Source: Eledone cirrhosa (lineage: Eukaryota). From it: 64,000 nt of DNA. The notes below the pieces were generated by a model that made no database searches, was not told the DNA's origin, and worked only from the letters and a program-made list of their open reading frames with translations. A program made the translations under genes and the position numbers. Positions 3,501 through 64,000 of the stretch are shown piece by piece (positions within the stretch are counted from its first letter, which is position 1; each line of letters opens with the position of its first letter). Where the stretch lies: the NCBI GenBank assembly GCA_964016885.1, contig OZ024763.1, forward strand, positions 23,436,001-23,500,000, read 5' to 3'.

Positions 3501-3647
3501 TGATATCATCATCATCATTGTGTTTAACTTCCACTTTCCCTGCTCTCTCTCTCTCTCCCTCTCTCTCTCTCTCTATATATATATATAAAAACGTTAACAC
3601 ACACATGCACACATATATGCATACACTATATATATATATATATATAA

Positions 3648-3866
3648 CAAAGGAGGTGTGGTAAGGAACCAGGTGGACCATAACGCACCAGAGTACTCAA
3701 TACTTAGTGTAGTAGAGTGGGTAATAGGAAAATGTTTAACCCTGACGGTAGAGCTCAAGCCGTTTCGACGGCTATTTCTGGACTCCAGAAATAGCCATCT
3801 ACTACTCTAAGTATTGAGTACTCTGGTGCATTATGGTCCACCTGCTTCCCTACCACACCTCCTTCA
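3648..3866. mobile_element. Palindromic element with the 3' half of a hammerhead (minus strand) in its spacer
   Basis: Arms ~3651-3716 and ~3798-3863 are inverted. The spacer reverse complement is a 13-bp hairpin + gtc GAAAC GG..CC GTC. Same family as 37701-37890. Flanked by (TA)n. Confidence 0.7.
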
Positions 3867-3967
3867 TTATATATATATATATATATATCTATGTATGTAT
3901 ACAAAAGATACATACACACACACACACATAGAGAGAGATATGCGCATGCATATATATATATATGTAT

Positions 3968-6872: not shown

Positions 6873-7144
6873 AACAAAGTCAATCTGTGAACGCAGAAGT
6901 GAATATTTCAAAAAACGTTGCAACCGGAGGAAGACAGGAAGACGATACTTTGGTTCGTGGAAACGTTCCCTGGCAAAGAACGGGAAAAAACGAATATAAT
7001 ACGTCATTATTTGGAGCAGTGAAAAGCAATTACATGCGACGACAAAGCCACGTTTATGGTATAAAAGAAGTCGTAGACTAATGTTCTAATATTTTAATAA
7101 ATATATATAAATATATAAATATATATATATATAAATATATATAT

Positions 7145-7535
7145 GGAGGCACATGGCTTAGTGGTTAGAGCATTGACCTTGCAATCGAAAGGTTGTGAGT
7201 TCAATTCTCAGACCAGGTGATGTGTTGTTTCCTTGAGCAAGACACTTTATTTCACATTGCTCCAGCTTACTCAGCTGTAGAAACGAGATGATAGGGACAA
7301 CCTCATTTACAGTGAGTGCTGGGTGCTTTTTTGCCATGGCACCTCCACGACCACTTTGCAGTGGAATGATAGGGACCCCAGTCCCTATCATCTCATTTCT
7401 ACAGCTGAGTAAACTGGAGCAATGTGAAATAAAGTGTCTTGCTCAAGGAAACAACACATCACCCAGTCTGAGAATTGAACTCACAACCTTTCGATTGCAA
7501 GGCCAATGCTCTAACCACTAAGCCATGTGCCTCCA
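7145..7535. mobile_element. Two tRNA-SINE copies in tail-to-tail inverted arrangement
   Basis: 7145-7297 (+) SINE head with A/B boxes. 7298-7535 (-) is a longer copy of the same SINE as 3175-3500. Confidence 0.9.
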
Positions 7536-7605
7536 TTATGTACAAAAATATATATTATATATTAATACAGGTTAGGAGGCAAGGGTGTGTGGTTACTGAA
7601 AACGA

Positions 7606-7770
7606 AGTGTTGGAAGGTAATCAGGAGACAAAGAAGAGGAGAAAAGTTTCCCTTTGTCAGCTGTTTACTACAGATCTTGGATGTTTCGGCATTTAAAACA
7701 GTAAATGCAGAAACATCCAAGATCCGTAGTAAACAGCTGACAAAGGGAAACTTTTTTACCTTCCAACACT
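7606..7770. repeat. Palindrome centred on a hairpin flanked by GTTTC and GAAAC
   Basis: aaaagtttccctttgtcagctgtttactacagatcttggatgtttc is inverted as gaaacatccaagatccgtagtaaacagctgacaaagggaaactttt. Confidence 0.9.
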
Positions 7771-7867
7771 ATATATATATATATATATAGTTGTGTATAG
7801 TGGTAGCTATGGTGCTTCCATAGGCGGTATGCTAAAATTAGCACTCGATATTCGTCAGAGTAGAGTA

Positions 7868-8210
7868 TAGATATTATAAAGAAAACGAAAAACCAGTGAT
7901 GCATCTGGACTTAGTTTATTTTGTGTTACAAATGTTTCGCCGACATGTAGCTCGAGTCATGGTCCTTGTATGGATGTGACTGATTCTACTTCTGCGGGTT
8001 CTTTCAGACACGGGTGTTATGTCTGGAGCAAATTTTAGTCATAAAATTTGCTCCAGACGAAACACCCGTGTCTGAAAGAACCCGCAGAAGTAGAATCAGT
8101 CACATCCATACAAGGACCATGACTCGAGCTACATGTCGGCGAAACATTTGTAACACGAAATAAACTAAGTTCAGATGCATCACTGATTTTTCATTTTCTT
8201 TATAATATAT
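7868..8210. repeat. ~340-bp near-perfect palindrome with a 4-nt loop (8038-8041) and a hammerhead-like motif in each arm
   Basis: Arms are reverse complements. Right arm: cgtgt CTGAAAGA ...long insert... GAAAC attt GTA acacg (8067-8157). Confidence 0.9.
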
Positions 8211-8240
8211 ATATATTTATTTATTAAAATAACAGATTAA

Positions 8241-37700: not shown

Positions 37701-37889
37701 GAACTCCTGCCGTTTCGACGACAGCTAGATTCTAGATTCTTCGAACAGTTTGGATCTAGCTGTCAAAACAGCCAGAGCTCAGCTGTCGGGGTCATGACTC
37801 TTTTCCTATTACCCACTCTACTACCCTAAGTATCGAGTACTCTGGTGTGTTATGGTCCACCAGGTATCTTACCACACTCTCTTTGTTGT

Positions 37890-37892
<3 letters not shown>
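37701..37892 (+). mobile_element. Element with a fold-back hammerhead remnant, same family as 3648-3866
   Basis: gccgtttcgac-gacagctagat..atctagctgtc-aaaacagc..gctgtc, then ttttcctattacccactctactaccctaagtatcgagtactctggtg. Confidence 0.7.
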
Positions 37893-39627: not shown

Positions 39628-40016
39628 TTTCATCATTTCATTTCATTTTACGTCCGCTTTTCCCTGCTTGCAAGGGTGGGACGGGAACTGATTCTGGCTT
39701 GATTTCTACAGCTGGATGCCCTTCCTAACACCAACCTCATTTACAGTGAGTGCTGGGTGCTTTTTTTCCGTGGCGCCTACACGTCGACTTTACAGTGTGG
39801 GCTGGGTTTTTTTTGCCGTGGCACCTCTACGACCACTTTGCAGTGGAATGATAAGGACCCCAGTCCCTATCATCTCATTTCTACAGCTGAGTAAACTGGA
39901 GCAATGTGAAATAAAGTGTCTTGCTCAAGGAAACAACACATCACCTGGTCTGAGAATTGAACTCACAACCTTTCGATTGCAAGGCCAATGCTCTAACCAC
40001 TAAGCCATGTGCCCCC
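39628..40016 (-). mobile_element. tRNA-derived SINE with RTE tail, same family as 3175-3500
   Basis: Near-identical reverse complement of 3175-3500 with a small internal duplication. Confidence 0.9.
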
Positions 40017-40108: not shown

Positions 40109-40150
40109 AGAAAAAAAGAGAATCAGTGTTGCGACGAATGGAATTTATTG

Positions 40151-40271
40151 GACATATTACAATCATTTCTATGGCGACCAGCTCGAGGACCTTGCGATTT
40201 TCAGAGTCAGGTTTGATCATCACATTGATCGTGCCTCGAGCTGGTCGCCAGAGAAACAATTGTAATTAGTC
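40151..40271. repeat. Hairpin tggcgaccagctcgagg/cctcgagctggtcgcca followed by GAAAC AATT GTA
   Basis: 17-bp perfect stem. The arms extend imperfectly through ttacaat/attgtaa. Confidence 0.85.
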
Positions 40272-40626
40272 AAAAATATGGTGAAAGCTTCTATTTCTAA
40301 TTTCAAACTCGCTCGCTGTTTCAAAGCATATCATAATCTATAAAGCTCAGTGTGTGGTCATGCTCCTTCGTTATAGAAATCTACGATATAGAATTTCTTC
40401 AATTGAAATTTACGATTCAGTATTCGAAATAGTTTCGATTGCGTCTTGACGCAGATCATTTTTTCAATTTCACCCACAATTACGCAAAAAATAGATAAAA
40501 CTCAATATTTTACGATTTTTCTCTCTCATTTAAACTGCTGAACTCTTTCTACTACCATTCAAAATCTATACAACTTCATACTTTCTGCTACTTTCTCTTT
40601 CCAAGCTTGATGGTGATACTGTCCGT

Positions 40627-42190: not shown

Positions 42191-42826
42191 TGAGATGGAG
42201 GGTTTGTGGTTTGTCTACCACAAACCCACCATCTCAATTTTACATTTGAAAAGCATAAGAACTGTGAAACCGGTAAAGGAAATAAATAAGAATTCTTAAA
42301 AAGACTCCAGTTGGTTGCATTTCGATTTCTTTTCTTTTTATATATATATATATATATATATGACCAAAAGTTAAACAAGACAACCAAGACTGGAATTGAA
42401 CCATGAGCACAGTTGAGGTATGTCATACATCAATTTATATATTTTATCTGATGAGGACGTACTGAGGAAACAGCAGAGTACCTCTGAAATATTTATAATA
42501 AAATATATTTGATTACATGAATGTCTATATTTATTAATATTTTGAATTAATATATATATATATATATATATATATGCATATATATCACAAACTCATGCTT
42601 ATGCACGTGTTCAAGTATAGCTTTTTTTACAAAACGTTTTTTTTTTCCAATTCACGTAGACACGCGCCATCATCCAATTTTCTAAAAAAACAAATCATAT
42701 ACAAAACGCCAGCACCAACAGTTTTGCAAGAGATGTCAACATGTATGGACCTGATATTTTTATCTAAAGACATTTTTTCCAATTCCATCCTGCCCGTCCC
42801 CTCAATCTATTTTATTTCTCATTCTT

Positions 42827-42862
42827 TCTTCTGATGAAGGACTAGTGTCCGAAACGTTAAGA
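42827..42862 (+). ncRNA. Minimal type I hammerhead ribozyme (Penelope pseudo-LTR type)
   Basis: tctt CTGATGA a ggac-tagt-gtcc GAAAC GTT aaga, palindromic stem III AACGTT. Confidence 0.85.
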
Positions 42863-49002: not shown

Positions 49003-52000
49003 ACAATTTGATGGAAGAGGAAAGTGGATTAAGTCTACCCCAGTGTATTAGGCCAGTAGTTTGGTGGAAGGGGAAAGTGGATTAAGTCTACCCCAGTGTA
49101 TTAGGCCAGTAGTTTGGTGGAAGGGGAAAGTGGATTAAGTCTACCCCAGTGTATTAGGCCAGTTGTTTGGTGGAAGGGGAAAGTGGATTAAGTCTACCCC
49201 AGTGTATTAGGCCAGTAGTTTGGTGTAAGGTGAAAGTGGATTAAGTCTACCCCAGTGTATTAGGCCAGTAGTTTGGTGGAAGGGGAAAGTGGATTAAGTC
49301 TACCCCAGTGTATTAGGCCAGTAGTTTGGTGGAAGGTGAAAGTGGATTAAGTCTACCCCAGTGTATTAGGCCAGTAGTTTGGTGGAAGGGGAAAGTGGAT
49401 TAAGTCTACCCCAGTGTATTAGGCCAGTAGTTTGATGGAAGGGGAAAGTGGATTAAGTCTACCCCAGTGTATTAGGCCAGTAGTTTGCTGGAAGAGGAAA
49501 GTGGATTAAGTCTACCCCAGTGTATTAGGCCAGTAGTTTGGTGGAAGGGGAAAGTGGATTAAGTCTACCCCAGTGTATTAGGCCAGTAGTTTGGTGGAAG
49601 AGGAAAGTGGATTAAGTCTACCCCAGTGTATTAGGCCAGTAGTTTGGTGTAAGGGGAAAGTGGATTAAGTCTACCCCAGTGTATTAGGCCAGTAGTTTGA
49701 TGGAAGGGGAAAGTGGATTAAGTCTACCCCAGTGTATTAGGCCAGTAGTTTGGTGGAAGAGGAAAGTGGATTAAGTCTACCCCAGTGTATTAGGCCAGTA
49801 GTTTGGTGGAAGGGGAAAGTGGATTAAGTCTACCCCAGTGTATTAGGCCAGTAGTTTGGTGGAAGAGGAAAGTGGATTAAGTCTACCCCAGTGTATTAGG
49901 CCAGTAGTTTGGTGGAAGGGGAAAGTGGATTAAGTCTACCCCAGTGTATTAGGCCAGTAGTTTGGTGGAAGAGGAAAGTGGATTAAGTCTACCCCAGTGT
50001 ATTAGGCCAGTAGTTTGGTGGAAGGGGAAAGTGGATTAAGTCTACCCCAGTGTATTAGGCCAGTAGTTTGGTGGAAGAGGAAAGTGGATTAAGTCTACCC
50101 CAGTGTATTAGGCCAGTAGTTTGGTGGAAGGGGAAAGTGGATTAAGTCTACCCCAGTGTATTAGGCCAGTAGTTTGGTGGAAGAGGAAAGTGGATTAAGT
50201 CTACCCCAGTGTATTAGGCCAGTAGTTTGGTGGAAGGGGAAAGTGGATTAAGTCTACCCCAGTGTATTAGGCCAGTAGTTTGGTGGAAGAGGAAAGTGGA
50301 TTAAGTCTACCCCAGTGTATTAGGCCAGTAGTTTGGTGGAAGGGGAAAGTGGATTAAGTCTACCCCAGTGTATTAGGCCAGTAGTTTGGTGGAAGAGGAA
50401 AGTGGATTAAGTCTACCCCAGTGTATTAGGCCAGTAGTTTGGTGGAAGGGGAAAGTGGATTAAGTCTACCCCAGTGTATTAGGCCAGTAGTTTGGTGGAA
50501 GAGGAAAGTGGATTAAGTCTACCCCAGTGTATTAGGCCAGTAGTTTGGTGGAAGGGGAAAGTGGATTAAGTCTACCCCAGTGTATTAGGCCAGTAGTTTG
50601 GTGGAAGGGGAAAGTGGATTAAGTCTACCCCAGTGTATTAGGCCAGTAGTTTGGTGGAAGGTGAAAGTGGATTAAGTCTACCCCAGTGTATTAGGCCAGT
50701 AGTTTGATGGAAGAGGAAAGTGGATTAAGTCTACCCCAGTGTATTAGACCAGTAGTTTGGTGGAAGAGGAAAGTGGATTAAGTCTACCCCAGTGTATTAG
50801 GCCAGTAGTTTGATGGAAGAGGAAAGTGGATTAAGTCTACCCCAGTGTATTAGACCAGTAGTTTGGTGGAAGAGGAAAGTGGATTAAGTCTACCCCAGTG
50901 TATTAGGCCAGTAGTTTGGTGGAAGGTGAAAGTGGATTAAGTCTACCCCAGTGTATTAGGCCAGTAGTTTGGTGGAAGGTGAAAGTGGATTAAGTCTACC
51001 CCAGTGTATTAGGCCAGTAGTTTGGTGGAAGAGGAAAGTGGATTAAGTCTACCCCAGTGTATTAGACCAGTAGTTTGGTGGAAGAGGAAAGTGGATTAAG
51101 TCTACCCCAGTGTATTAGGCCAGTAGTTTGGTGGAAGAGGAAAGTGGATTAAGTCTACCCCAGTGTATTAGGCCAGTAGTTTGATGGAAGGGGGAAGTGG
51201 ATTAAGTCTACCCCAGTGTATTAGGCCAGTAGTTTGATGGAAGAGGAAAGTGGATTAAGTCTACTCCAGTGTATTAGACCAGTAGTTTGATGGAAGGTGA
51301 AAGTGGATTAAGTCTACCCCAGTGTATTAGGCCAGTAGTTTGGTGGAAGAGGAAAGTGGATTAAGTCTACCCCAGTGTATTAGACCAGTAGTTTGGTGGA
51401 AGGGAAAAGTGGATTAAGTCTACCCCAGTGTATTAGACCAGTAGTTTGATGGAAGGGGGAAGTGGATTAAGTCTACCCCAGTGTATTAGGCCAGTAGTTT
51501 GATGGAAGAGGAAAGTGGATTAAGTCTACCCCAGTGTATTAGGCCAGTAGTTTGGTGGAAGAGGAAAGTGGATTAAGTCTACCCCAGTGTATTAGGCCAG
51601 TAGTTTGGTGGAAGAGGAAAGTGAATTAAGTCTACCCCAGTGTATTAGACCAGTAGTTTGATGGAAGGGGGAAGTGGATTAAGTCTACCCCAGTGTATTA
51701 GGCCAGTAGTTTGATGGAAGGTGAAAGTGGATTAAGTCTACCCCAGTGTATTAGGCCAGTAGTTTGGTGGAAGAGGAAAGTGGATTAAGTCTACCCCAGT
51801 GTATTAGGCCAGTAGTTTGGTGGAAGAGGAAAGTGGATTAAGTCTACCCCAGTGTATTAGGCCAGTAGTTTGGTGGAAGAGGAAAGTGGATTAAGTCTAC
51901 CCCAGTGTATTAGGCCAGTAGTTTGGTGGAAGAGGAAAGTGGATTAAGTCTACCCCAGTGTATTAGGCCAGTAGTTTGGTGGAAGAGGAAAGTGGATTAA

Positions 52001-55000
52001 GTCTACCCCAGTGTATTAGGCCAGTAGTTTGGTGGAAGAGGAAAGTGGATTAAGTCTACCCCAGTGTATTAGGCCAGTAGTTTGATGGAAGGGGGAAGTG
52101 GATTAAGTCTACCCCAGTGTATTAGGCCAGTAGTTTGATGGAAGAGGAAAGTGGATTAAGTCTACCCCAGTGTATTAGACCAGTAGTTTGATGGAAGGTG
52201 AAAGTGGATTAAGTCTACCCCAGTGTATTAGGCCAGTAGTTTGGTGGAAGAGGAAAGTGGATTAAGTCTACCCCAGTGTATTAGACCAGTAGTTTGGTGG
52301 AAGGGAAAAGTGGATTAAGTCTACCCCAGTGTATTAGACCAGTAGTTTGATGGAAGGGGGAAGTGGATTAAGTCTACCCCAGTGTATTAGGCCAGTAGTT
52401 TGATGGAAGAGGAAAGTGGATTAAGTCTACCCCAGTGTATTAGGCCAGTAGTTTGGTGGAAGAGGAAAGTGGATTAAGTCTACCCCAGTGTATTAGGCCA
52501 GTAGTTTGGTGGAAGAGGAAAGTGAATTAAGTCTACCCCAGTGTATTAGACCAGTAGTTTGATGGAAGGGGGAAGTGGATTAAGTCTACCCCAGTGTATT
52601 AGGCCAGTAGTTTGATGGAAGGTGAAAGTGGATTAAGTCTACCCCAGTGTATTAGGCCAGTAGTTTGGTGGAAGAGGAAAGTGGATTAAGTCTACCCCAG
52701 TGTATTAGGCCAGTAGTTTGGTGGAAGAGGAAAGTGGATTAAGTCTACCCCAGTGTATTAGGCCAGTAGTTTGGTGGAAGAGGAAAGTGGATTAAGTCTA
52801 CCCCAGTGTATTAGGCCAGTAGTTTGGTGGAAGAGGAAAGTGGATTAAGTCTACCCCAGTGTATTAGGCCAGTAGTTTGGTGGAAGAGGAAAGTGGATTA
52901 AGTCTACCCCAGTGTATTAGGCCAGTAGTTTGATGGAAGGTGAAAGTGGATTAAGTCTACCCCAGTGTATTAGGCCAGTAGTTTGATGGAAGGTGAAAGT
53001 GGATTAAGTCTACCCCAGTGAATTAGGCCAGTAGTTTGGTGGAAGAGGAAAGTGGATTAAGTCTACCCCTGTGTATTAGGCCAGTAGTTTGATGGAAGGT
53101 GAAAGTGGATTAAGTCTACCCCAGTGTATTAGGCCAGTAGTTTGGTGGAAGAGGAAAGTGGATTAAGTCTACCCCAGTGTATTAGGCCAGTAGTTTGGTG
53201 GAAGAGGAAAGTGGATTAAGTCTACCCCAGTGTATTAGGCCAGTAGTTTGGTGGAAGAGGAAAGTGGATTAAGTCTACCCCAGTGTATTAGGCCAGTAGT
53301 TTGGTGGAAGAGGAAAGTGGATTAAGTCTACCCCAGTGTATTAGGCCAGTAGTTTGATGGAAGGTGAAAGTGGATTAAGTCTACCCCAGTGTATTAGGCC
53401 AGTAGTTTGATGGAAGGTGAAAGTGGATTAAGTCTACCCCAGTGTATTAGGCCAGTAGTTTGGTGGAAGAGGAAAGTGGATTAAGTCTACCCCAGTGTAT
53501 TAGGCCAGTAGTTTGGTGGAAGAGGAAAGTGGATTAAGTCTACCCCAGTGTATTAGGCCAGTAGTTTGATGGAAGGTGAAAGTGGATTAAGTCTACCCCA
53601 GTGTATTAGGCCAGTAGTTTGGTGGAAGAGGAAAGTGGATTAAGTCTACCCCAGTGTATTAGGCCAGTAGTTTGGTGGAAGAGGAAAGTGGATTAAGTCT
53701 ACCCCAGTGTATTAGGCCAGTAGTTTGATGGAAGGGGAAAGTGGATTAAGTCTACCCCAGTGTATTAGGCCAGTAGTTTGATGGAAGGTGAAAGTGGATT
53801 AAGTCTACCCCAGTGAATTAGGCCAGTAGTTTGGTGGAAGAGGAAAGTGGATTAAGTCTACCCTAGTGAATTAGGCCAGTAGTTTGATGGAAGGTGAAAG
53901 TGGATTAAGTCTACCCCAGTGTATTAGGCCAGTAGTTTGGTGGAAGAGGAAAGTGGATTAAGTCTACCCCAGTGTATTAGGCCAGTAGTTTGGTGGAAGA
54001 GGAAAGTGGATTAAGTCTACCCCAGTGTATTAGGCCAGTAGTTTGGTGGAAGAGGAAAGTGGATTAAGTCTACCCCAGTGTATTAGGCCAGTAGTTTGGT
54101 GGAAGAGGAAAGTGGATTAAGTCTACCCCAGTGTATTAGGCCAGTAGTTTGGTGGAAGAGGAAAGTGGATTAAGTCTACCCCAGTGTATTAGGCCAGTAG
54201 TTTGGTGGAAGAGGAAAGTGGATTAAGTCTACCCCAGTGTATTAGGCCAGTAGTTTGATGGAAGGGGAAAGTGGATTAAGTCTACCCCAGTGTATTAGGC
54301 CAGTAGTTTGATGGAAGGTGAAAGTGGATTAAGTCTACCCCAGTGTATTAGGCCAGTAGTTTGGTGGAAGAGGAAAGTGGATTAAGTCTACCCCAGTGAA
54401 TTAGGCCAGTAGTTTGATGGAAGGTGAAAGTGGATTAAGTCTACCCCAGTGAATTAGGCCAGTAGTTTGGTGGAAGAGGAAAGTGGATTAAGTCTACCCC
54501 AGTGTATTAGGCCAGTAGTTTGGTGGAAGAGGAAAGTGGATTAAGTCTACCCCAGTGTATTAGGCCAGTAGTTTGATGGAAGGGGAAAGTGGATTAAGTC
54601 TACCCCAGTGTATTAGGCCAGTAGTTTGATGGAAGGTGAAAGTGGATTAAGTCTACCCCAGTGTATTAGGCCAGTAGTTTGATGGAAGGTGAAAGTGGAT
54701 TAAGTCTACCCCAGTGCATTAGGCCAGTAGTTTGATGGAAGGTGAAAGTGGATTAAGTCTACCCCAGTGTATTAGGCCAGTAGTTTGATGGAAGGTGAAA
54801 GTGGATTAAGTCTACCCCAGTGAATTAGGCCAGTAGTTTGATGGAAGGGGAAAGTGGATTAAGTCTACCCCAGGGTATTAGGCCAGTAGTTTGATGGAAA
54901 GTGAAAGTGGATTAAGTCTACCCCAGTGAATTAGGCCAGTAGTTTGGTGGCAGAGGAAAGTGGATTAAGTCTACCCCAGTTATTAGGCCAGTAGTTTGAT

Positions 55001-58000
55001 GGAAGGTGAAAGTGAATTAAGTTTACCCCAGTGTATTAGGCCAGTAGTTTGATGGAAGGTGAAAGTGGATTAAGTCTACCCCAGTGTATTAGGCCAGTAG
55101 TTTGATGGAAGGGGAAAGTGGATTAAGTCTACCCCAGTGTATTAGGCCAGTAGTTTGATGGAAGGTGAAAGTGGATTAAGTCTACCCCAGTGAATTAGGC
55201 CAGTAGTTTGGTGGCAGAGGAAAGTGGATTAAGTCTACCCCAGTGTATTAGGCCAGTAGTTTGATGGAAGGTGAAAGTCGATTAAGTCTACCCCAGTGTA
55301 TTAGGCCAGTAGTTTGATGGAAGGTGAAAGTGGATTAAGTCTACCCCAGTGTATTAGGCCAGTAGTTTGATGGAAGGGGAAAGTGGATTAAGTCTACCCC
55401 AGTGTATTAGGCCAGTAGTTTGTTGGAAGGTGAAAGTGGATTAAGTCTACCCCAGTGTATTAGGCCAGTAGTTTGATGGAAGGTGAAAGTGGATTAAGTC
55501 TACCCCAGTGTATTAGGCCAGTAGTTTGATGGAAGGTGAAAGTGGATTAAGTCTACCCCAGTGAATTAGGCCAGTAGTTTGGTGGCAGAGGAAAGTGGAT
55601 TAAGTCTACCCCAGTGTATTAGGCCAGTAGTTTGATGGAAGGTGAAAGTGGATTAAGTCTACCCCAGTGAATTAGGCCAGTAGTTTGATGGAAGGGGAAA
55701 GTGGATTAAGTCTACCCCAGGGTATTAGGCCAGTAGTTTGATGGAAGGTGAAAGTGGATTAAGTCTACCCCAGTGAATTAGGCCAGTAGTTTGGTGGCAG
55801 AGGAAAGTGGATTAAGTCTACCCCAGTGTATTAGGCCAGTAGTTTGATGGAAGGTGAAAGTGGATTAAGTCTACCCCAGTGTATTAGGCCAGTAGTTTGA
55901 TGGAAGGTGAAAGTGGATTAAGTCTACCCCAGTGTATTAGGCCAGTAGTTTGATGGAAGGGGAAAGTGGATTAAGTCTACCCCAGTGTATTAGGCCAGTA
56001 GTTTGATGGAAGGTGAAAGTGGATTAAGTCTACCCCAGTGAATTAGGCCAGTAGTTTGGTGGCAGAGGAAAGTGGATTAAGTCTACCCCAGTGTATTAGG
56101 CCAGTAGTTTGATGGAAGGTGAAAGTGGATTAAGTCTACCCCAGTGTATTAGGCCAGTAGTTTGATGGAAGGTGAAAGTGGATTAAATCTACCCCAGTGT
56201 ATTAGGCCAGTAGTTTGATGGAAGGGGAAAGTGGATTAAGTCTACCCCAGTGTATTAGGCCAGTAGTTTGATGGAAGGCGAAAGTGGATTAAGTCTACCC
56301 CAGTGAATTAGGCCAGTAGTTTGGTGGCAGAGGAAAGTGGATTAAGTCTACCCCAGTGTATTAGGCCAGTAGTTTGATGGAAGGTGAAAGTTGATTAAGT
56401 CTACCCCAGTGTATTAGGCCAGTAGTTTGATGGAAGGTGAAAGTGGATTAAGTCTACCCCAGTGAATTAGGCCAGTAGTTTGGTGGAAGAGGAAAGTGGA
56501 TTAAGTCTACCCCAGTTTATTAGGCCAGTAGTTTGGTGGAAGAGGAAAGTGGATTAAGTCTACCCCAGTGTATTAGGCCAGTAGTTTGGTGGAAGGTGAA
56601 AGTGGATTAAGTCTACCCCAGTGTATTAGGCCAGTAGTTTGATGGAAGGGGAAAGTGGATTAAGTCTACCCCAGTGTATTAGGCCAGTAGTTTGATGGAA
56701 GGTGAAAGTGGATTAAGTCTACCCCAGTGTATTAGGCCAGTAGTTTGGTGGAAGAGGAAAGTGGATTAAGTCTACCCCAGTGAATTAGGCCAGTAGTTTG
56801 ATGGAAGGTGAAAGTGGATTAAGTCTACCCCAGTGAATTAGGCCAGTAGTTTTGTGGAAGGGGAAAGTGGATTAAGTCTACCCCAGTGTATTAGGCCAGT
56901 AGTTTGATGGAAGAGGAAAGTGGATTAAGTCTACCCCAGTGTATTAGGACAGTAGTTTGGTGGAAGAGGAAAGTGGATTAAGTCTACCCCAGTGTATTAG
57001 GCCAGCAGATTGATGGAAGAGGAAAGTGGATTAAGTCTACCCCAGTGTATTAGGACAGTCGTTTGGTGGAAGAGGAAAGTGGATTAAGTCTACCCCAGTG
57101 TATTAGGCCAGTAGTTTGGTGGAAGAGGAAAGTGGATTAAGTCTACCCCAGTGTATTAGGCCAGCAGATTGATGGAAGAGGAAAGTGGATTAAGTCTACC
57201 CCAGTGTATTAGGACAGTAGTTTGGTGGAAGAGGAAAGTGGATTAAGTCTACCCCAGTGTATTAGGCCAGTAGTTTGGTGGAAGAGGAAAGTGGATTAAG
57301 TCTACCCCAGTGTATTAGGCCAGTAGTTTGGTGGAAGAGGAAAGTGGATTAAGTCTACCCCAGTGTATTAGGCCAGTAGTTTGATGGAAGAGGAAAGTGG
57401 ATTAAGTCTACCCCAGTGTATTAGGCCAGTAGTTTGGTGGAAGAGGAAAGTGGATTAAGTCTACCCCAGTGAATTAGGCCAGTAGTTTGGTGGCAGAGGA
57501 AAGTGGATTAAGTCTACCCCAGTGTATTAGGCCAGTAGTTTGATGGAAGGTGAAAGTCGATTAAGTCTACCCCAGTGTATTAGGCCAGTAGTTTGATGGA
57601 AGGTGAAAGTGGATTAAGTCTACCCCAGTGTATTAGGCCAGTAGTTTGATGGAAGGGGAAAGTGGATTAAGTCTACCCCAGTGTATTAGGCCAGTAGTTT
57701 GATGGAAGGTGAAAGTGGATTAAGTCTACCCCAGTGAATTAGGCCAGTAGTTTGGTGGCAGAGGAAAGTGGATTAAGTCTACCCCAGTGTATTAGGCCAG
57801 TAGTTTGATGGAAGGTGAAAGTCGATTAAGTCTACCCCAGTGTATTAGGCCAGTAGTTTGATGGAAGGTGAAAGTGGATTAAGTCTACCCCAGTGTATTA
57901 GGCCAGTAGTTTGATGGAAGGGGAAAGTGGATTAAGTCTACCCCAGTGTATTAGGCCAGTAGTTTGTTGGAAGGTGAAAGTGGATTAAGTCTACCCCAGT

Positions 58001-61000
58001 GTATTAGGCCAGTAGTTTGATGGAAGGTGAAAGTGGATTAAGTCTACCCCAGTGTATTAGGCCAGTAGTTTGATGGAAGGTGAAAGTGGATTAAGTCTAC
58101 CCCAGTGAATTAGGCCAGTAGTTTGGTGGCAGAGGAAAGTGGATTAAGTCTACCCCAGTGTATTAGGCCAGTAGTTTGATGGAAGGTGAAAGTGGATTAA
58201 GTCTACCCCAGTGAATTAGGCCAGTAGTTTGATGGAAGGGGAAAGTGGATTAAGTCTACCCCAGGGTATTAGGCCAGTAGTTTGATGGAAGGTGAAAGTG
58301 GATTAAGTCTACCCCAGTGAATTAGGCCAGTAGTTTGGTGGCAGAGGAAAGTGGATTAAGTCTACCCCAGTGTATTAGGCCAGTAGTTTGATGGAAGGTG
58401 AAAGTGGATTAAGTCTACCCCAGTGTATTAGGCCAGTAGTTTGATGGAAGGTGAAAGTGGATTAAGTCTACCCCAGTGTATTAGGCCAGTAGTTTGATGG
58501 AAGGGGAAAGTGGATTAAGTCTACCCCAGTGTATTAGGCCAGTAGTTTGATGGAAGGTGAAAGTGGATTAAGTCTACCCCAGTGAATTAGGCCAGTAGTT
58601 TGGTGGCAGAGGAAAGTGGATTAAGTCTACCCCAGTGTATTAGGCCAGTAGTTTGATGGAAGGTGAAAGTGGATTAAGTCTACCCCAGTGTATTAGGCCA
58701 GTAGTTTGATGGAAGGTGAAAGTGGATTAAATCTACCCCAGTGTATTAGGCCAGTAGTTTGATGGAAGGGGAAAGTGGATTAAGTCTACCCCAGTGTATT
58801 AGGCCAGTAGTTTGATGGAAGGTGAAAGTGGATTAAGTCTACCCCAGTGAATTAGGCCAGTAGTTTGGTGGCAGAGGAAAGTGGATTAAGTCTACCCCAG
58901 TGTATTAGGCCAGTAGTTTGATGGAAGGTGAAAGTTGATTAAGTCTACCCCAGTGTATTAGGCCAGTAGTTTGATGGAAGGTGAAAGTGGATTAAGTCTA
59001 CCCCAGTGAATTAGGCCAGTAGTTTGGTGGAAGAGGAAAGTGGATTAAGTCTACCCCAGTTTATTAGGCCAGTAGTTTGGTGGAAGAGGAAAGTGGATTA
59101 AGTCTACCCCAGTGTATTAGGCCAGTAGTTTGGTGGAAGGTGAAAGTGGATTAAGTCTACCCCAGTGTATTAGGCCAGTAGTTTGATGGAAGGGGAAAGT
59201 GGATTAAGTCTACCCCAGTGTATTAGGCCAGTAGTTTGATGGAAGGTGAAAGTGGATTAAGTCTACCCCAGTGTATTAGGCCAGTAGTTTGGTGGAAGAG
59301 GAAAGTGGATTAAGTCTACCCCAGTGAATTAGGCCAGTAGTTTGATGGAAGGTGAAAGTGGATTAAGTCTACCCCAGTGAATTAGGCCAGTAGTTTTGTG
59401 GAAGGGGAAAGTGGATTAAGTCTACCCCAGTGTATTAGGCCAGTAGTTTGATGGAAGAGGAAAGTGGATTAAGTCTACCCCAGTGTATTAGGACAGTAGT
59501 TTGGTGGAAGAGGAAAGTGGATTAAGTCTACCCCAGTGTATTAGGCCAGCAGATTGATGGAAGAGGAAAGTGGATTAAGTCTACCCCAGTGTATTAGGAC
59601 AGTCGTTTGGTGGAAGAGGAAAGTGGATTAAGTCTACCCCAGTGTATTAGGCCAGTAGTTTGGTGGAAGAGGAAAGTGGATTAAGTCTACCCCAGTGTAT
59701 TAGGCCAGCAGATTGATGGAAGAGGAAAGTGGATTAAGTCTACCCCAGTGTATTAGGACAGTAGTTTGGTGGAAGAGGAAAGTGGATTAAGTCTACCCCA
59801 GTGTATTAGGCCAGTAGTTTGGTGGAAGAGGAAAGTGGATTAAGTCTACCCCAGTGTATTAGGCCAGTAGTTTGGTGGAAGAGGAAAGTGGATTAAGTCT
59901 ACCCCAGTGTATTAGGCCAGTAGTTTGATGGAAGAGGAAAGTGGATTAAGTCTACCCCAGTGTATTAGGCCAGTAGTTTGGTGGAAGAGGAAAGTGGATT
60001 AAGTCTACCCCAGTGTATTAGGCCAGTAGTTTGGTGGAAGAGGAAAGTGAATTAAGTCTACCCCAGTGTATTAGGCCAGTAGTTTGGTGGAAGAGGAAAG
60101 TGGATTAAGTCTACCCCAGTGTATTAGGCCAGTAGTTTGGTGGAAGAGGAAAGTGGATTAAGTCTACCCCAGTGTATTAGGCCAGTAGTTTGGTGGAAGA
60201 GGAAAGTGGATTAAGACTACCCCAGTGTATTAGGCCAGTAGTTTGGTGAAAGAGGAAAGTGGATTAAGTCTACCCCAGTGTATTAGGCCAGTAGTTTGGT
60301 GGAAGAGGAAAGTGGATTAAGTCTACCCCAGTGTATTAGGCCAGTAGTTTGGTGGAAGAGGAAAGTGGATTAAGTCTACCCCAGTGTATTAGGCCAGTAG
60401 TTTGGTGGAGGAGGAAAGTGGATTAAGTCTACCCCAGTGTATTAGGCCAGTAGTTTGATGGAAGGTGAAAGTGGATTAAGTCTACCCCAGTGTATTAGGC
60501 CAGTAGTTTGGTGGAAGAGGAAAGTGGATTAAGTCTACCCCAGTGTATTAGGCCAGTAGTTTGATGGAAGGTGAAAGTGGATTAAGTCTACCCCAGTGTA
60601 TTAGGCCAGTAGTTTGATGGAAGGTGAAAGTGGATTAAGTCTACCCCAGTGTATTAGGCCAGTAGTTTGATGGAAGGTGAAAGTGGATTAAGTCTACCCC
60701 AGTGTATTAGGCCAGTAGTTTGGTGGAAGAGGAAAGTGGATTAAGTCTACCCCAGTGTATTAGGCCAGTAGTTTGATGGAAGGTGAAAGTGGATTAAGTC
60801 TACCCCAGTGTATTAGGCCAGTAGTTTGGTGGAAGAGGAAAGTGGATTAAGTCTACCCCAGTGTATTAGGCCAGTAGTTTGATGGAAGGTGAAAGTGGAT
60901 TAAGTCTACCCCAGTGTATTAGGCCAGTAGTTTGATGGAAGGTGAAAGTGGATTAAGTCTACCCCAGTGTATTAGGCCAGTAGTTTGGTGGAAGAGGAAA

Positions 61001-64000
61001 GTGGATTAAGTCTACCCCAGTGTATTAGGCCAGTAGTTTGATGGAAGGTGAAAGTGGATTAAGTCTACCCCAGTGTATTAGGCCAGTAGTTTGATGGAAG
61101 GTGAAAGTGGATTAAGTCTACCCCAGTGTATTAGGCCAGTAGTTTGATGGAAGGTGAAAGTGGATTAAGTCTACCCCAGTGTATTAGGCCAGTAGTTTGG
61201 TGGAAGAGGAAAGTGGATTAAGTCTACCCCAGTGTATTAGGCCAGTAGTTTGATGGAAGGTGAAAGTGGATTAAGTCTACCCCAGTGTATTAGGCCAGTA
61301 GTTTGGTGGAAGAGGAAAGTGGATTAAGTCTACCCCAGTGTATTAGGCCAGTAGTTTGATGGAAGGTGAAAGTGGATTAAGTCTACCCCAGTGTATTAGG
61401 CCAGTAGTTTGGTGGAAGAGGAAAGTGGATTAAGTCTACCCCAGTGTATTAGGCCAGTAGTTTGGTGGAGGAGGAAAGTGGATTAAGTCTACCCCAGTGT
61501 ATTAGGCCAGTAGTTTGGTGGAGGAGGAAAGTGGATTAAGTCTACCCCAGTGTATTAGGCCAGTAGTTTGGTGGAGGAGGAAAGTGGATTAAGTCTACCC
61601 CAGTGTATTAGGCCAGTAGTTTGGTGGAGGAGGAAAGTGGATTAAGTCTACCCCAGTGTATTAGGCCAGTAGTTTGGTGGAGGAGGAAAGTGGATTAAGT
61701 CTACCCCAGTGTATTAGGCCAGTAGTTTGGTGGAGGAGGAAAGTGGATTAAGTCTACCCCAGTGTATTAGGCCAGTAGTTTGGTGGAAGGTGAAAGTGGA
61801 TTAAGTCTACCCCAGTGTATTAGGCCAGTAGTTTGGTGGAAGAGGAAAGTGGATTAAGTCTACCCCAGTGTATTAGGCCAGTAGTTTGGTGGAAGGTGAA
61901 AGTGGATTAAGTCTACCCCAGTGTATTAGGCCAGTAGTTTGGTGTAAGGTGAAAGTGGATTAAGTCTACCCCAGTGTATTAGGCCAGTAGTTTGGTGGAA
62001 GAGGAAAGTGGATTAAGTCTACCCCAGTGTATTAGGCCAGTAGTTTGGTGGAGGAGGAAAGTGGATTAAGTCTACCCCAGTGTATTAGGCCAGTAGTTTG
62101 GTGTAAGGTGAAAGTGGATTAAGTCTACCCCAGTGTATTAGGCCAGTAGTTTGGTGGAAGAGGAAAGTGGATTAAGTCTACCCCAGTGTATTAGGCCAGT
62201 AGTTTGGTGGAGGAGGAAAGTGGATTAAGTCTACCCCAGTGTATTAGGCCAGTAGTTTGGTGGAGGAGGAAAGTGGATTAAGTCTACCCCAGTGTATTAG
62301 GCCAGTAGTTTGGTGGAGGAGGAAAGTGGATTAAGTCTACCCCAGTGTATTAGGCCAGTAGTTTGGTGGAGGAGGAAAGTGGATTAAGTCTACCCCAGTG
62401 TATTAGGCCAGTAGTTTGGTGGAGGAGGAAAGTGGATTAAGTCTACCCCAGTGTATTAGGCCAGTAGTTTGGTGGAAGGTGAAAGTGGATTAAGTCTACC
62501 CCAGTGTATTAGGCCAGTAGTTTGGTGGAAGAGGAAAGTGGATTAAGTCTACCCCAGTGTATTAGGCCAGTAGTTTGGTGGAAGGTGAAAGTGGATTAAG
62601 TCTACCCCAGTGTATTAGGCCAGTAGTTTGGTGTAAGGTGAAAGTGGATTAAGTCTACCCCAGTGTATTAGGCCAGTAGTTTGGTGGAAGAGGAAAGTGG
62701 ATTAAGTCTACCCCAGTGTATTAGGCCAGTAGTTTGGTGGAGGAGGAAAGTGGATTAAGTCTACCCCAGTGTATTAGGCCAGTAGTTTGGTGGAGGAGGA
62801 AAGTGGATTAACTCTACCCCAGTGTATTAGGCCAGTAGTTTGGTGGAGGAGGAAAGTGGATTAAGTCTACCCCAGTGTATTAGGCCAGTAGTTTGATGGA
62901 AGGGGAAAGTGGATTAAGTCTACCCCAGTGTATTAGGCCAGTAGTTTGGTGGAGGAGGAAAGTGGATTAAGTCTACGCCAGTGTATTAGGCCAGTAGTTT
63001 GGTGGAAGAGGAAAGTGGATTAAGTCTACCCCAGTGTATTAGGCCAGTAGTTTGATGGAAGGGGAAAGTGGATTAAGTCTACCCCAGTGTATTAGGCGAT
63101 TAGTTTGGTGGAAGAGGAAAGTGGATTAAGTCTACCCCAGTGTATTAGGCCAGTAGTTTGGTGGAAGAGGAAAGTGGATTAAGTCTACCCCAGTGTATTA
63201 GGCCAGTAGTTTGGTGGAAGAGGAAAGTGGATTAAGTCTACCCCAGTGTATTAGGCCAGTAGTTTGATGGAAGGGGAAAGTGGATTAAGTCTACCCCAGT
63301 GTATTAGGCCAGTAGTTTGATGGAAGGTGAAAGTGGATTAAGTCTACCCCAGTGTATTAGGCCAGTAGTTTGATGGAAGGTGAAAGTGGATTAAGTCTAC
63401 CCTAGTGTATTAGGCCAGTAGTTTGATGGAAGGTGAAAGTGGATTAAGTCTACCCCAGTGTATTAGGCCAGTAGTTTGGTGGAAGGTGAAAGTGGAATAA
63501 GTCTACCCCAGTGCATTAGGCCAGTAGTTTGATGGAAGGTGAAAGTGGATTAAGTCTACCCCAGTGTATTAGGCCAGTAGTTTGATGGAAGGTGAAAGTG
63601 GATTAAGTCTACCCCAGTGAATTAGGCCAGTAGTTTGATGGAAGGGGAAAGTGGATTAAGTCTACCCCAGGGTATTAGGCCAGTAGTTTGATGGAAAGTG
63701 AAAGTGGATTAAGTCTACCCCAGTGAATTAGGCCAGTAGTTTGGTGGCAGAGGAAAGTGGATTAAGTCTACCCCAGTTATTAGGCCAGTAGTTTGATGGA
63801 AGGTGAAAGTGAATTAAGTCTACCCCAGTGTATTAGGCCAGTAGTTTGATGGAAGGTGAAAGTGGATTAAGTCTACCCCAGTGTATTAGGCCAGTAGTTT
63901 GATGGAAGGGGAAAGTGGATTAAGTCTACCCCAGTGTATTAGGCCAGTAGTTTGATGGAAGGTGAAAGTGGATTAAGTCTACCCCAGTGAATTAGGCCAG
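49003..64000 (+). repeat. Satellite array B: 53-bp monomer, over 280 copies, runs off the window end
   Basis: Consensus ggccagtagtttggtggaagaggaaagtggattaagtctaccccagtgtatta, period 53. Confidence 0.99.

What the first reader, a model, noticed from the sequence alone, without database searches (positions are those of the whole stretch)
7606..7770. Half-hammerhead palindrome centred on stem II (recurrent architecture)
The hairpin gcattta/taaatgc is flanked by GTTTC and GAAAC. Both strands read hairpin-GAAAC..GTA, but the CUGANGA half is replaced by the inverted 3' half. The same architecture recurs in unrelated sequences at 8007-8073, 37701-37790, 40151-40271 and partly at 3744-3796. Inference: during insertion the cDNA folds back on the stem II hairpin and self-primes, so ribozyme structure dictates where palindromes form. 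I do not recall this being described.
Basis: inference. Interest (0 to 1): 0.72.

Follow-up and report, generated by a model that had tools for sequence, protein, structure and literature searches.

The report
Penelope palindromes centred on RNA ends
This palindrome is two copies of the end of a small non-coding jumping element joined head to head, a known Penelope-type footprint, and it is centred not on a ribozyme hairpin but on the predicted cut site of a hammerhead ribozyme whose parts are in a scrambled order, which likely marks where the copied RNA began.

Summary
The palindrome (7564-7770) is real, but its hairpin is not hammerhead stem II. None of 33 ordinary copies of the family has the hairpin or a CUGANGA upstream; CUGANGA lies downstream, inside both arms. 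The locus is a Penelope-like insertion in (TA)n: one arm with a 42-nt tail, one without, joined head to head. That layout is published. The family (727-nt non-coding monomer) carries a hammerhead in the scrambled S-G-C order, supported by compensatory changes in a sister family; the longer arm starts exactly at the predicted cut. Copy ends pile up just after that site (11 of 63, p=2e-4), but the sister family repeats this only weakly (6 of 99, p=0.05). Fold-back self-priming is not supported; two separately primed cDNAs running off the RNA's 5' end fit better. Across 59 random palindromes there is no clear general enrichment. The scan noted both the scrambled ribozyme and the RNA-start idea before, on other DNA.

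The parts
7564..7701 (-). Tail-bearing arm of family A (monomer positions 590-727); its 5' end (7701) is the first base after the predicted ribozyme cut
7564..7605 (-). 42-nt one-sided tail between the family's two fixed 3' ends (monomer 685 and about 727)
   Evidence: tail described in PMC8557442 and PMC11167929
7702..7770 (+). Tail-less arm (monomer 596-685) with a 21-nt deletion; shares rare variants with the left arm
7689..7708 (.).
7683..7690 (-). Block G (GAAA core) of the predicted S-G-C hammerhead; mirrored at 7706-7717 on +
7731..7750 (+). Block C: stem I strand plus decayed CUGANGA core (7737-7743); mirrored at 7647-7666 on -
7545..7563 (.). AT/TA-rich left flank (target); no discrete target duplication can be read
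7771..7789 (.). (TA)n right flank, shared with the neighbouring family B insertion
3613..3900 (.). Family C head-to-head insertion, turning inside stem II of a U3-A8 type I hammerhead
37701..37890 (+). Family C (second subfamily), same layout; forward arm starts near position -18 from GAAAC
7866..8213 (.). Family B palindrome; turns about 30 nt upstream of its hammerhead-like motif, and the GAAAC beside the centre is not conserved in the family
40110..40274 (.). Family D palindrome; the inverted arm joins inside the CUGAGGA core of a type I hammerhead with a long stem II

Best explanation
The palindrome is a head-to-head pair of short copies of a 727-nt non-coding element, likely made when a Penelope-type reverse transcriptase copied one RNA twice, from its two fixed start points onto the two ends of a cut in a TA repeat, and the two cDNAs were joined where they ran off the RNA's 5' end. 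Shown: two fixed 3' ends, one-sided tail, TA flanks, partial tandems, arms that share rare variants, and 5' ends that cluster. Inferred: in family A the RNA end is made by self-cleavage of a hammerhead in S-G-C order (predicted cut = window 7701), whose stem II region is probably splinted by an upstream strand. In family C the end is more likely a transcription start at a T[CT]AGT motif inside loop II, which leaves only the 3' half of the hammerhead in the template. The centre therefore marks an RNA end, not a hairpin that primes.
For: Two fixed 3' ends (685, about 727) occur in palindromic and ordinary copies alike. Of 6 directly joined head-to-head loci among 74 family A loci, 8 of 12 arms start 0 to +13 nt after the predicted cut (read). 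Pattern-anchored sample: 11 of 63 ends at 0..+14, 1 at -15..-1, rate ratio 4.7, p=2e-4; without TA-flanked ends 8 against 10 elsewhere, p=2e-4. S-G-C fold: stem I 92% paired in 46 A copies and 96% in 72 A2 copies, with two compensated pairs between the families, GUU against GUC at the cut, and a flipped pair in the splint helix; 0 descriptor hits in 600 kb of random genome and in 5 shuffles of it. Family C: 17 of 30 tail-anchored copies end at -30..-9 from GAAAC (rate ratio 14, p=6e-10), 11 of them at -20..-16; 8 of 16 inverted arms end at -16..-20; both subfamilies keep T[CT]AGT with the A at -18. In 5 of 30 C copies the tail-less arm is the longer one. One C junction holds a captured piece of an RT-like ORF.
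Against: The sister family A2 repeats the pile-up only weakly: 6 of 99 at 0..+14 (rate ratio 2.5, p=0.053), none in the last 30 copies fetched, and 4 of the 6 are TA-flanked where microhomology can mimic a peak. Most copies read through the site (31 of 63 in A and 71 of 99 in A2 extend beyond -80). The A window was chosen after seeing the data, and two loci count twice. The covariation rests on one contrast between two families; stem II is only 2 bp as drawn; RNAfold cannot show the pseudoknots and prefers a long stem III. No autonomous partner of family A was found. The ORF tied to family C has no Pfam or PDB match; calling it a Penelope RT rests on recalled motifs. In vitro, uncut RNA was the main template of a Poseidon element (PMC11167929).
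Confidence: 0.65

Rival explanations
1. Fold-back self-priming (first reader; Arkhipova 2013 in general form): the cDNA snaps back on a hairpin and copies itself.
For: The two arms share rare variants (CTGACAA in 3 of 47 segments, C for T in 3 of 70). Family A has a native long hairpin (stem III) around the site, and family C has a long stem II. Self-priming was proposed in PMC3846280.
Against: The hairpin is absent from 33 of 33 ordinary copies. The native 5' strands of those stems are not kept: the inner arms are exact inversions of the downstream side. The second arm stops at a fixed site also used by non-palindromic copies. In L002, L005, L066 and 5 of 30 C copies the tail-less arm holds bases that the tail-bearing arm lacks.
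Confidence: 0.1
2. Twin priming as above, but the cDNAs stop because the enzyme stalls at folded or protein-bound RNA, or pairs with TA-like patches; no cut or start site is involved.
For: Ends spread over 15-25 nt; many copies read through; a second, weaker cluster lies at -50..-36 (9 of 162, p=0.06) and is almost all TA-flanked; A2 replicates poorly.
Against: A step at the predicted cut in A and A2 together: 17 ends at 0..+14 against 2 at -15..-1. Stalling is expected at the 3' foot of a hairpin, not inside its loop (general knowledge). The sharp -18 mode in C sits on a motif kept in two subfamilies whose stems differ.
Confidence: 0.2
3. The palindromes are copies of a few palindromic master elements or ordinary MITEs.
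For: One junction recurs in about 9 of 30 C copies, and one in 4 of 29 D copies (by eye).
Against: Most junctions differ; only 3 of the 40 places scored for A are palindromic at this site; ends are asymmetric (tail); arms match each other better than other copies.
Confidence: 0.05

Closest known systems
Insertions of endonuclease-bearing Penelope-like elements (PMC8557442, PMC3846280; passages read)
   Same: Inverted 5'-truncated copy, one-sided 30-40 nt tail, partial tandems, (TA)n targets, palindrome at the inverted junction.
   Different: Family A is non-coding. In the passages read, the junction is not tied to a ribozyme cut site or a transcription start.
Type-SGC hammerhead ribozymes (HRIMA-1 and variants; Eckert et al. 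2023, PMC10085705; passages read)
   Same: Block order S-G-C, all core bases, short linker from stem I to stem II, crossing helices.
   Different: Published examples come from metatranscriptomes, not animal genomes. Here the linker is 6-7 nt, stem II is 2 bp or is replaced by a splinted junction with an upstream hairpin, and cleavage is untested.
Minimal hammerheads of Penelope pseudo-LTRs, including the U3-A8 variant (Cervera and de la Pena 2014, PMC4209133; parts 1-2 of 4 read)
   Same: Family C has the U3-A8 core and a long stem II; family D has a type I core with a long stem II.
   Different: Loop II is about 35 nt in C, and most genomic copies begin inside it.
Poseidon_Ac internal initiation (Frangieh et al. 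2024, PMC11167929; parts 1-2 of 4 read)
   Same: Two adjacent RT start sites explain the tail.
   Different: That work found uncut RNA to be the main template; the parts read do not treat inverted joints.
Animal non-LTR retrozymes (bioRxiv 10.64898/2026.07.22.740005; part 1 of 5 read)
   Same: Non-coding tandem monomer with a hammerhead, tied to Penelope elements.
   Different: Retrozymes are defined by type I hammerheads; A and A2 have the S-G-C order and monomers of 727 and about 800 nt.

Membership tests
Penelope-like element insertion | Inverted 5'-truncated copy at the 5' end | tested here: met
Penelope-like element insertion | One-sided 30-40 nt tail from two fixed 3' ends | tested here: met
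   42 nt; ends at 685 and about 727
Penelope-like element insertion | Partial tandems and (TA)n targets | tested here: met
   period 727; TA flanks
Penelope-like element (autonomous) | ORF with RT and GIY-YIG endonuclease | tested here: not met
   Family A monomer is non-coding and no adjacent ORF was found. Family C lies beside RT-like ORFs in 12 of 19 loci, named from recalled motifs only (searches gave no match).
Naiad clade association | Motif lies in the 3' end of an N-terminal-endonuclease element | not tested
   Claimed in earlier scan notes; Craig et al. list 'half-core' cases in a supplement that I did not read.
Type I/II/III hammerhead (family A) | CUGANGA, stem II, GAAA in circular order | tested here: not met
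   0 of 33 copies have CUGANGA upstream; no Rfam hammerhead hit in the window at E<=1
Type-SGC hammerhead | Block order S-G-C with intact core | tested here: met
   46 A and 72 A2 copies; the window copy lacks the 5' half of S and has a mutated core
Type-SGC hammerhead | Stems I and III with covariation | tested here: met
   Stem I: two compensated pairs between A and A2; stem III core invariant, its extension differs but pairs; one contrast only
Type-SGC hammerhead | Stem II and the stem I-II interaction helix | tested here: inconclusive
   2 bp GG/CC only; an upstream strand can pair with both sides instead
Type-SGC hammerhead | Site-specific self-cleavage | not testable with these tools
   Indirect only: pile-up of ends
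MITE | Fixed terminal inverted repeats and a target duplication in all copies | tested here: not met
   3 of 40 scored places palindromic; asymmetric ends; variable junctions
Non-LTR retrozyme | Type I hammerhead in each tandem unit | tested here: not met
   S-G-C order
Non-LTR retrozyme | Circular RNA | not testable with these tools
   No RNA holder listed

The most novel reading that the evidence does not exclude
Palindrome centres of Penelope-type insertions are a fossil map of the template RNA's 5' end. In family A that end is cut by an active, splinted S-G-C hammerhead, a ribozyme layout published only from environmental RNA; in family C it is a promoter start inside loop II that switches off the upstream ribozyme copy.
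Probability: 0.4. Interest if true: 0.7.

Novelty: new variant of a known kind. Interest (0 to 1): 0.45.

Why it matters
How Penelope-like elements make their inverted ends, and what their hammerheads do, are stated open questions (PMC8557442). If centres mark RNA 5' ends, thousands of genomic copies give base-level predictions that 5' RACE or an in vitro reaction can test. A working S-G-C hammerhead in an animal genome would extend that layout beyond metatranscriptomes. The palindrome itself is ordinary.

Tried and rejected
Rfam scan: only hairpin-driven microRNA matches below their thresholds, no hammerhead. Exact palindrome pattern: only the window itself. Reading CTGACGA-AGG-GAAAC as a minimal type I core: no stem II and a C-C clash in stem III (by inspection), dropped. 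Canonical CUGANGA within 36 nt upstream of family C: 18 diverse matches, no shared context; the true core is U3-A8. Family D as a MITE: rejected, it has a tail and variable junctions. First hazard script used wrong coordinates and the second stopped at indels; both were replaced. Genome-wide enrichment: 10 of 59, p=0.05; 7 of 104 bins further out along the same arms. Pfam and PDB gave nothing for the ORF; the Atlas was unavailable. No ORF of note between the arms of L066 and L067. Literature searches listed no paper that ties palindrome centres to a ribozyme cut or start site, or reports S-G-C hammerheads in retroelements; subscription journals are not covered, and no supplements were read.

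Full report
Observation. The window lies on contig C24 of a 3.0-Gb animal genome. The left arm runs 42 nt further than the right (7564-7605), and the right arm has a 21-nt deletion. Both sides abut TA-rich tracts. The four other sites are real inverted repeats, but each has one degenerate GAAAC.

The family. A search with 7600-7775 scored 40 places, of which 3, the window included, are palindromic at this site. Further copies came from a 17-base anchor (63 matches) and two fetches. The element is a 727-nt non-coding monomer that forms partial tandems and has two fixed 3' ends, at 685 and about 727. The inverted copy, the one-sided tail and the TA targets are the published footprint of Penelope-like elements (PMC8557442, passages; PMC3846280, passages). 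The two ends correspond to two RT start sites in PMC11167929 (parts 1-2 of 4).

Of 33 ordinary copies that span the site, none has CUGANGA in the 60 nt upstream and none has the hairpin's 5' arm. The hairpin is the innermost part of the inversion. CUGANGA lies downstream of GAAAC, inside both arms; in the window it has decayed to CTGACAA in both.

What the ribozyme is. Ordinary copies read, in order: a stem III strand, a GUU triplet and a stem I strand; then GAAA with the other stem III strand; then the other stem I strand with CUGANGA. I noted this crossed order. An earlier scan note (e1-8670900) pointed to its name, type SGC (PMC10085705, passages), reported there from metatranscriptomes. 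A descriptor scan of the 1.44 Mb then held found it only in family A copies and in one diverged element; it found 0 in 600 kb of random genome and 0 in 5 shuffles. The diverged element defines family A2 (about 800-nt monomer, 206 exact anchor matches). Stem I is 92% paired in 46 A copies and 96% in 72 A2 copies, with two compensated pairs between the families, and the triplet is GUC in A2. An upstream strand can pair with both sides of stem II, with a flipped pair between the families. As drawn without it, stem II is 2 bp. This is one contrast between two families, and cleavage is untested.

Where copies end. The window's longer arm starts at the first base after the predicted cut. In A, 11 of 63 anchored segments end at 0..+14 and 1 at -15..-1 (rate ratio 4.7, p=2e-4); the excess remains without TA-flanked ends (8 against 10, p=2e-4). 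The window was chosen after seeing A, two loci count twice, and 31 of 63 read beyond -80. A2 was the independent test. The first 69 segments gave 6 ends (p=0.009), the next 30 gave none, and the total is 6 of 99 (p=0.053); 4 of the 6 are TA-flanked. Together: 17 ends after the cut against 2 before it. I take this as moderate support.

The other sites. 3744 and 37701 are one family (C; 6,064 exact anchor matches), found beside RT-like ORFs in 12 of 19 loci. Pfam and PDB do not name that ORF, so the Penelope label rests on recalled motifs. Long copies show a type I hammerhead with the U3-A8 core and a long stem II (variant described in PMC4209133; lead from e1-9560118). In the first 30 tail-anchored copies, 17 end at -30..-9 from GAAAC (rate ratio 14, p=6e-10), 11 of them at -20..-16, and 3 read through. 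Of 16 inverted arms, 8 end at -16..-20. Both subfamilies keep T[CT]AGT with the A at -18, which resembles an initiator (consensus recalled; Penelope has an internal promoter, PMC2377424, passages). At 40151 (family D) the inverted arm joins inside a CUGAGGA core, but 13 of 23 copies scored keep the core (two spurious rows dropped, six copies missed by the pattern, sample biased by the query). At 8007 (family B) the GAAAC beside the centre varies in the family, and the hammerhead-like motif lies further down the arm (by eye).

No general rule. In 60 evenly spaced 10-kb stretches, 59 palindromes were found. Ten have GAAAC within 40 nt of the centre, against 9.5% of random points (p=0.05). Six of the ten belong to two hammerhead families. 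The effect is family-specific.

Mechanism. Shown: the arms share rare variants, so they come from one template. The second arm stops at a site that ordinary copies also use. In L002, L005, L066 and 5 of 30 C copies each arm holds bases that the other lacks, so neither arm is a copy of the other. The native 5' strands of the stems are not kept. Inferred: two cDNAs are primed separately at the two start sites, run to the RNA's 5' end, and are joined with small losses. That end is likely a ribozyme cut in A (about 0.5) and a transcription start in C (about 0.6). Stalling or TA microhomology is the main rival. No RNA run was listed for a direct test.

Novelty. The palindrome is a known footprint, and self-priming was proposed for it in 2013. 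The tie between centres and RNA 5' ends, and an S-G-C hammerhead in an animal retroelement, did not appear in six literature searches, which miss subscription journals; the Naiad 'half-core' list in the supplement of PMC8557442 was not read and may bear on it. The scan has noted both ideas before on other DNA; those notes are not evidence. Verdict: new variant of a known kind, interest 0.45.

Noticed in passing
   Followed up: no
L131:1386-1493: A 108-nt piece of an RT-like ORF captured at the head-to-head junction of a family C insertion; 99% identical to an ORF in L197.
   Followed up: partly
L267:1391-1528, L276:537-677, L303:5323-5427: A further hammerhead family whose palindromes turn at the 5' edge of, or inside, the CUGAUGA core.
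   Followed up: no
window 8060-8160 and L091-L117: Family B has a hammerhead-like motif with one extra base in the first core strand and about 70 nt in stem II; its copies share a sharp 5' boundary about 22 nt before the unconserved GAAAC (by eye).
   Followed up: partly
window 7570-7580 and 7606-7620: A similar short motif precedes each of family A's two 3' ends, as for the twin hairpins in earlier notes.
   Followed up: no
family A and A2, 36-50 nt upstream of the predicted cut: A second, weaker cluster of 5' ends in the loop of the conserved upstream hairpin, nearly all TA-flanked (9 of 162).
   Followed up: partly
window 10233-32251 and 49007-64000: Two satellites, 58 bp x 382 and 53 bp x 283, each 95% homogeneous.
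   Followed up: no
window 7143-7536 and about 39800-40010: A tRNA-like SINE, present as an inverted pair at 7143-7536.
   Followed up: no
window 42448-42471 and 42831-42855: Two ordinary type I hammerhead cores of other repeat families.
   Followed up: no
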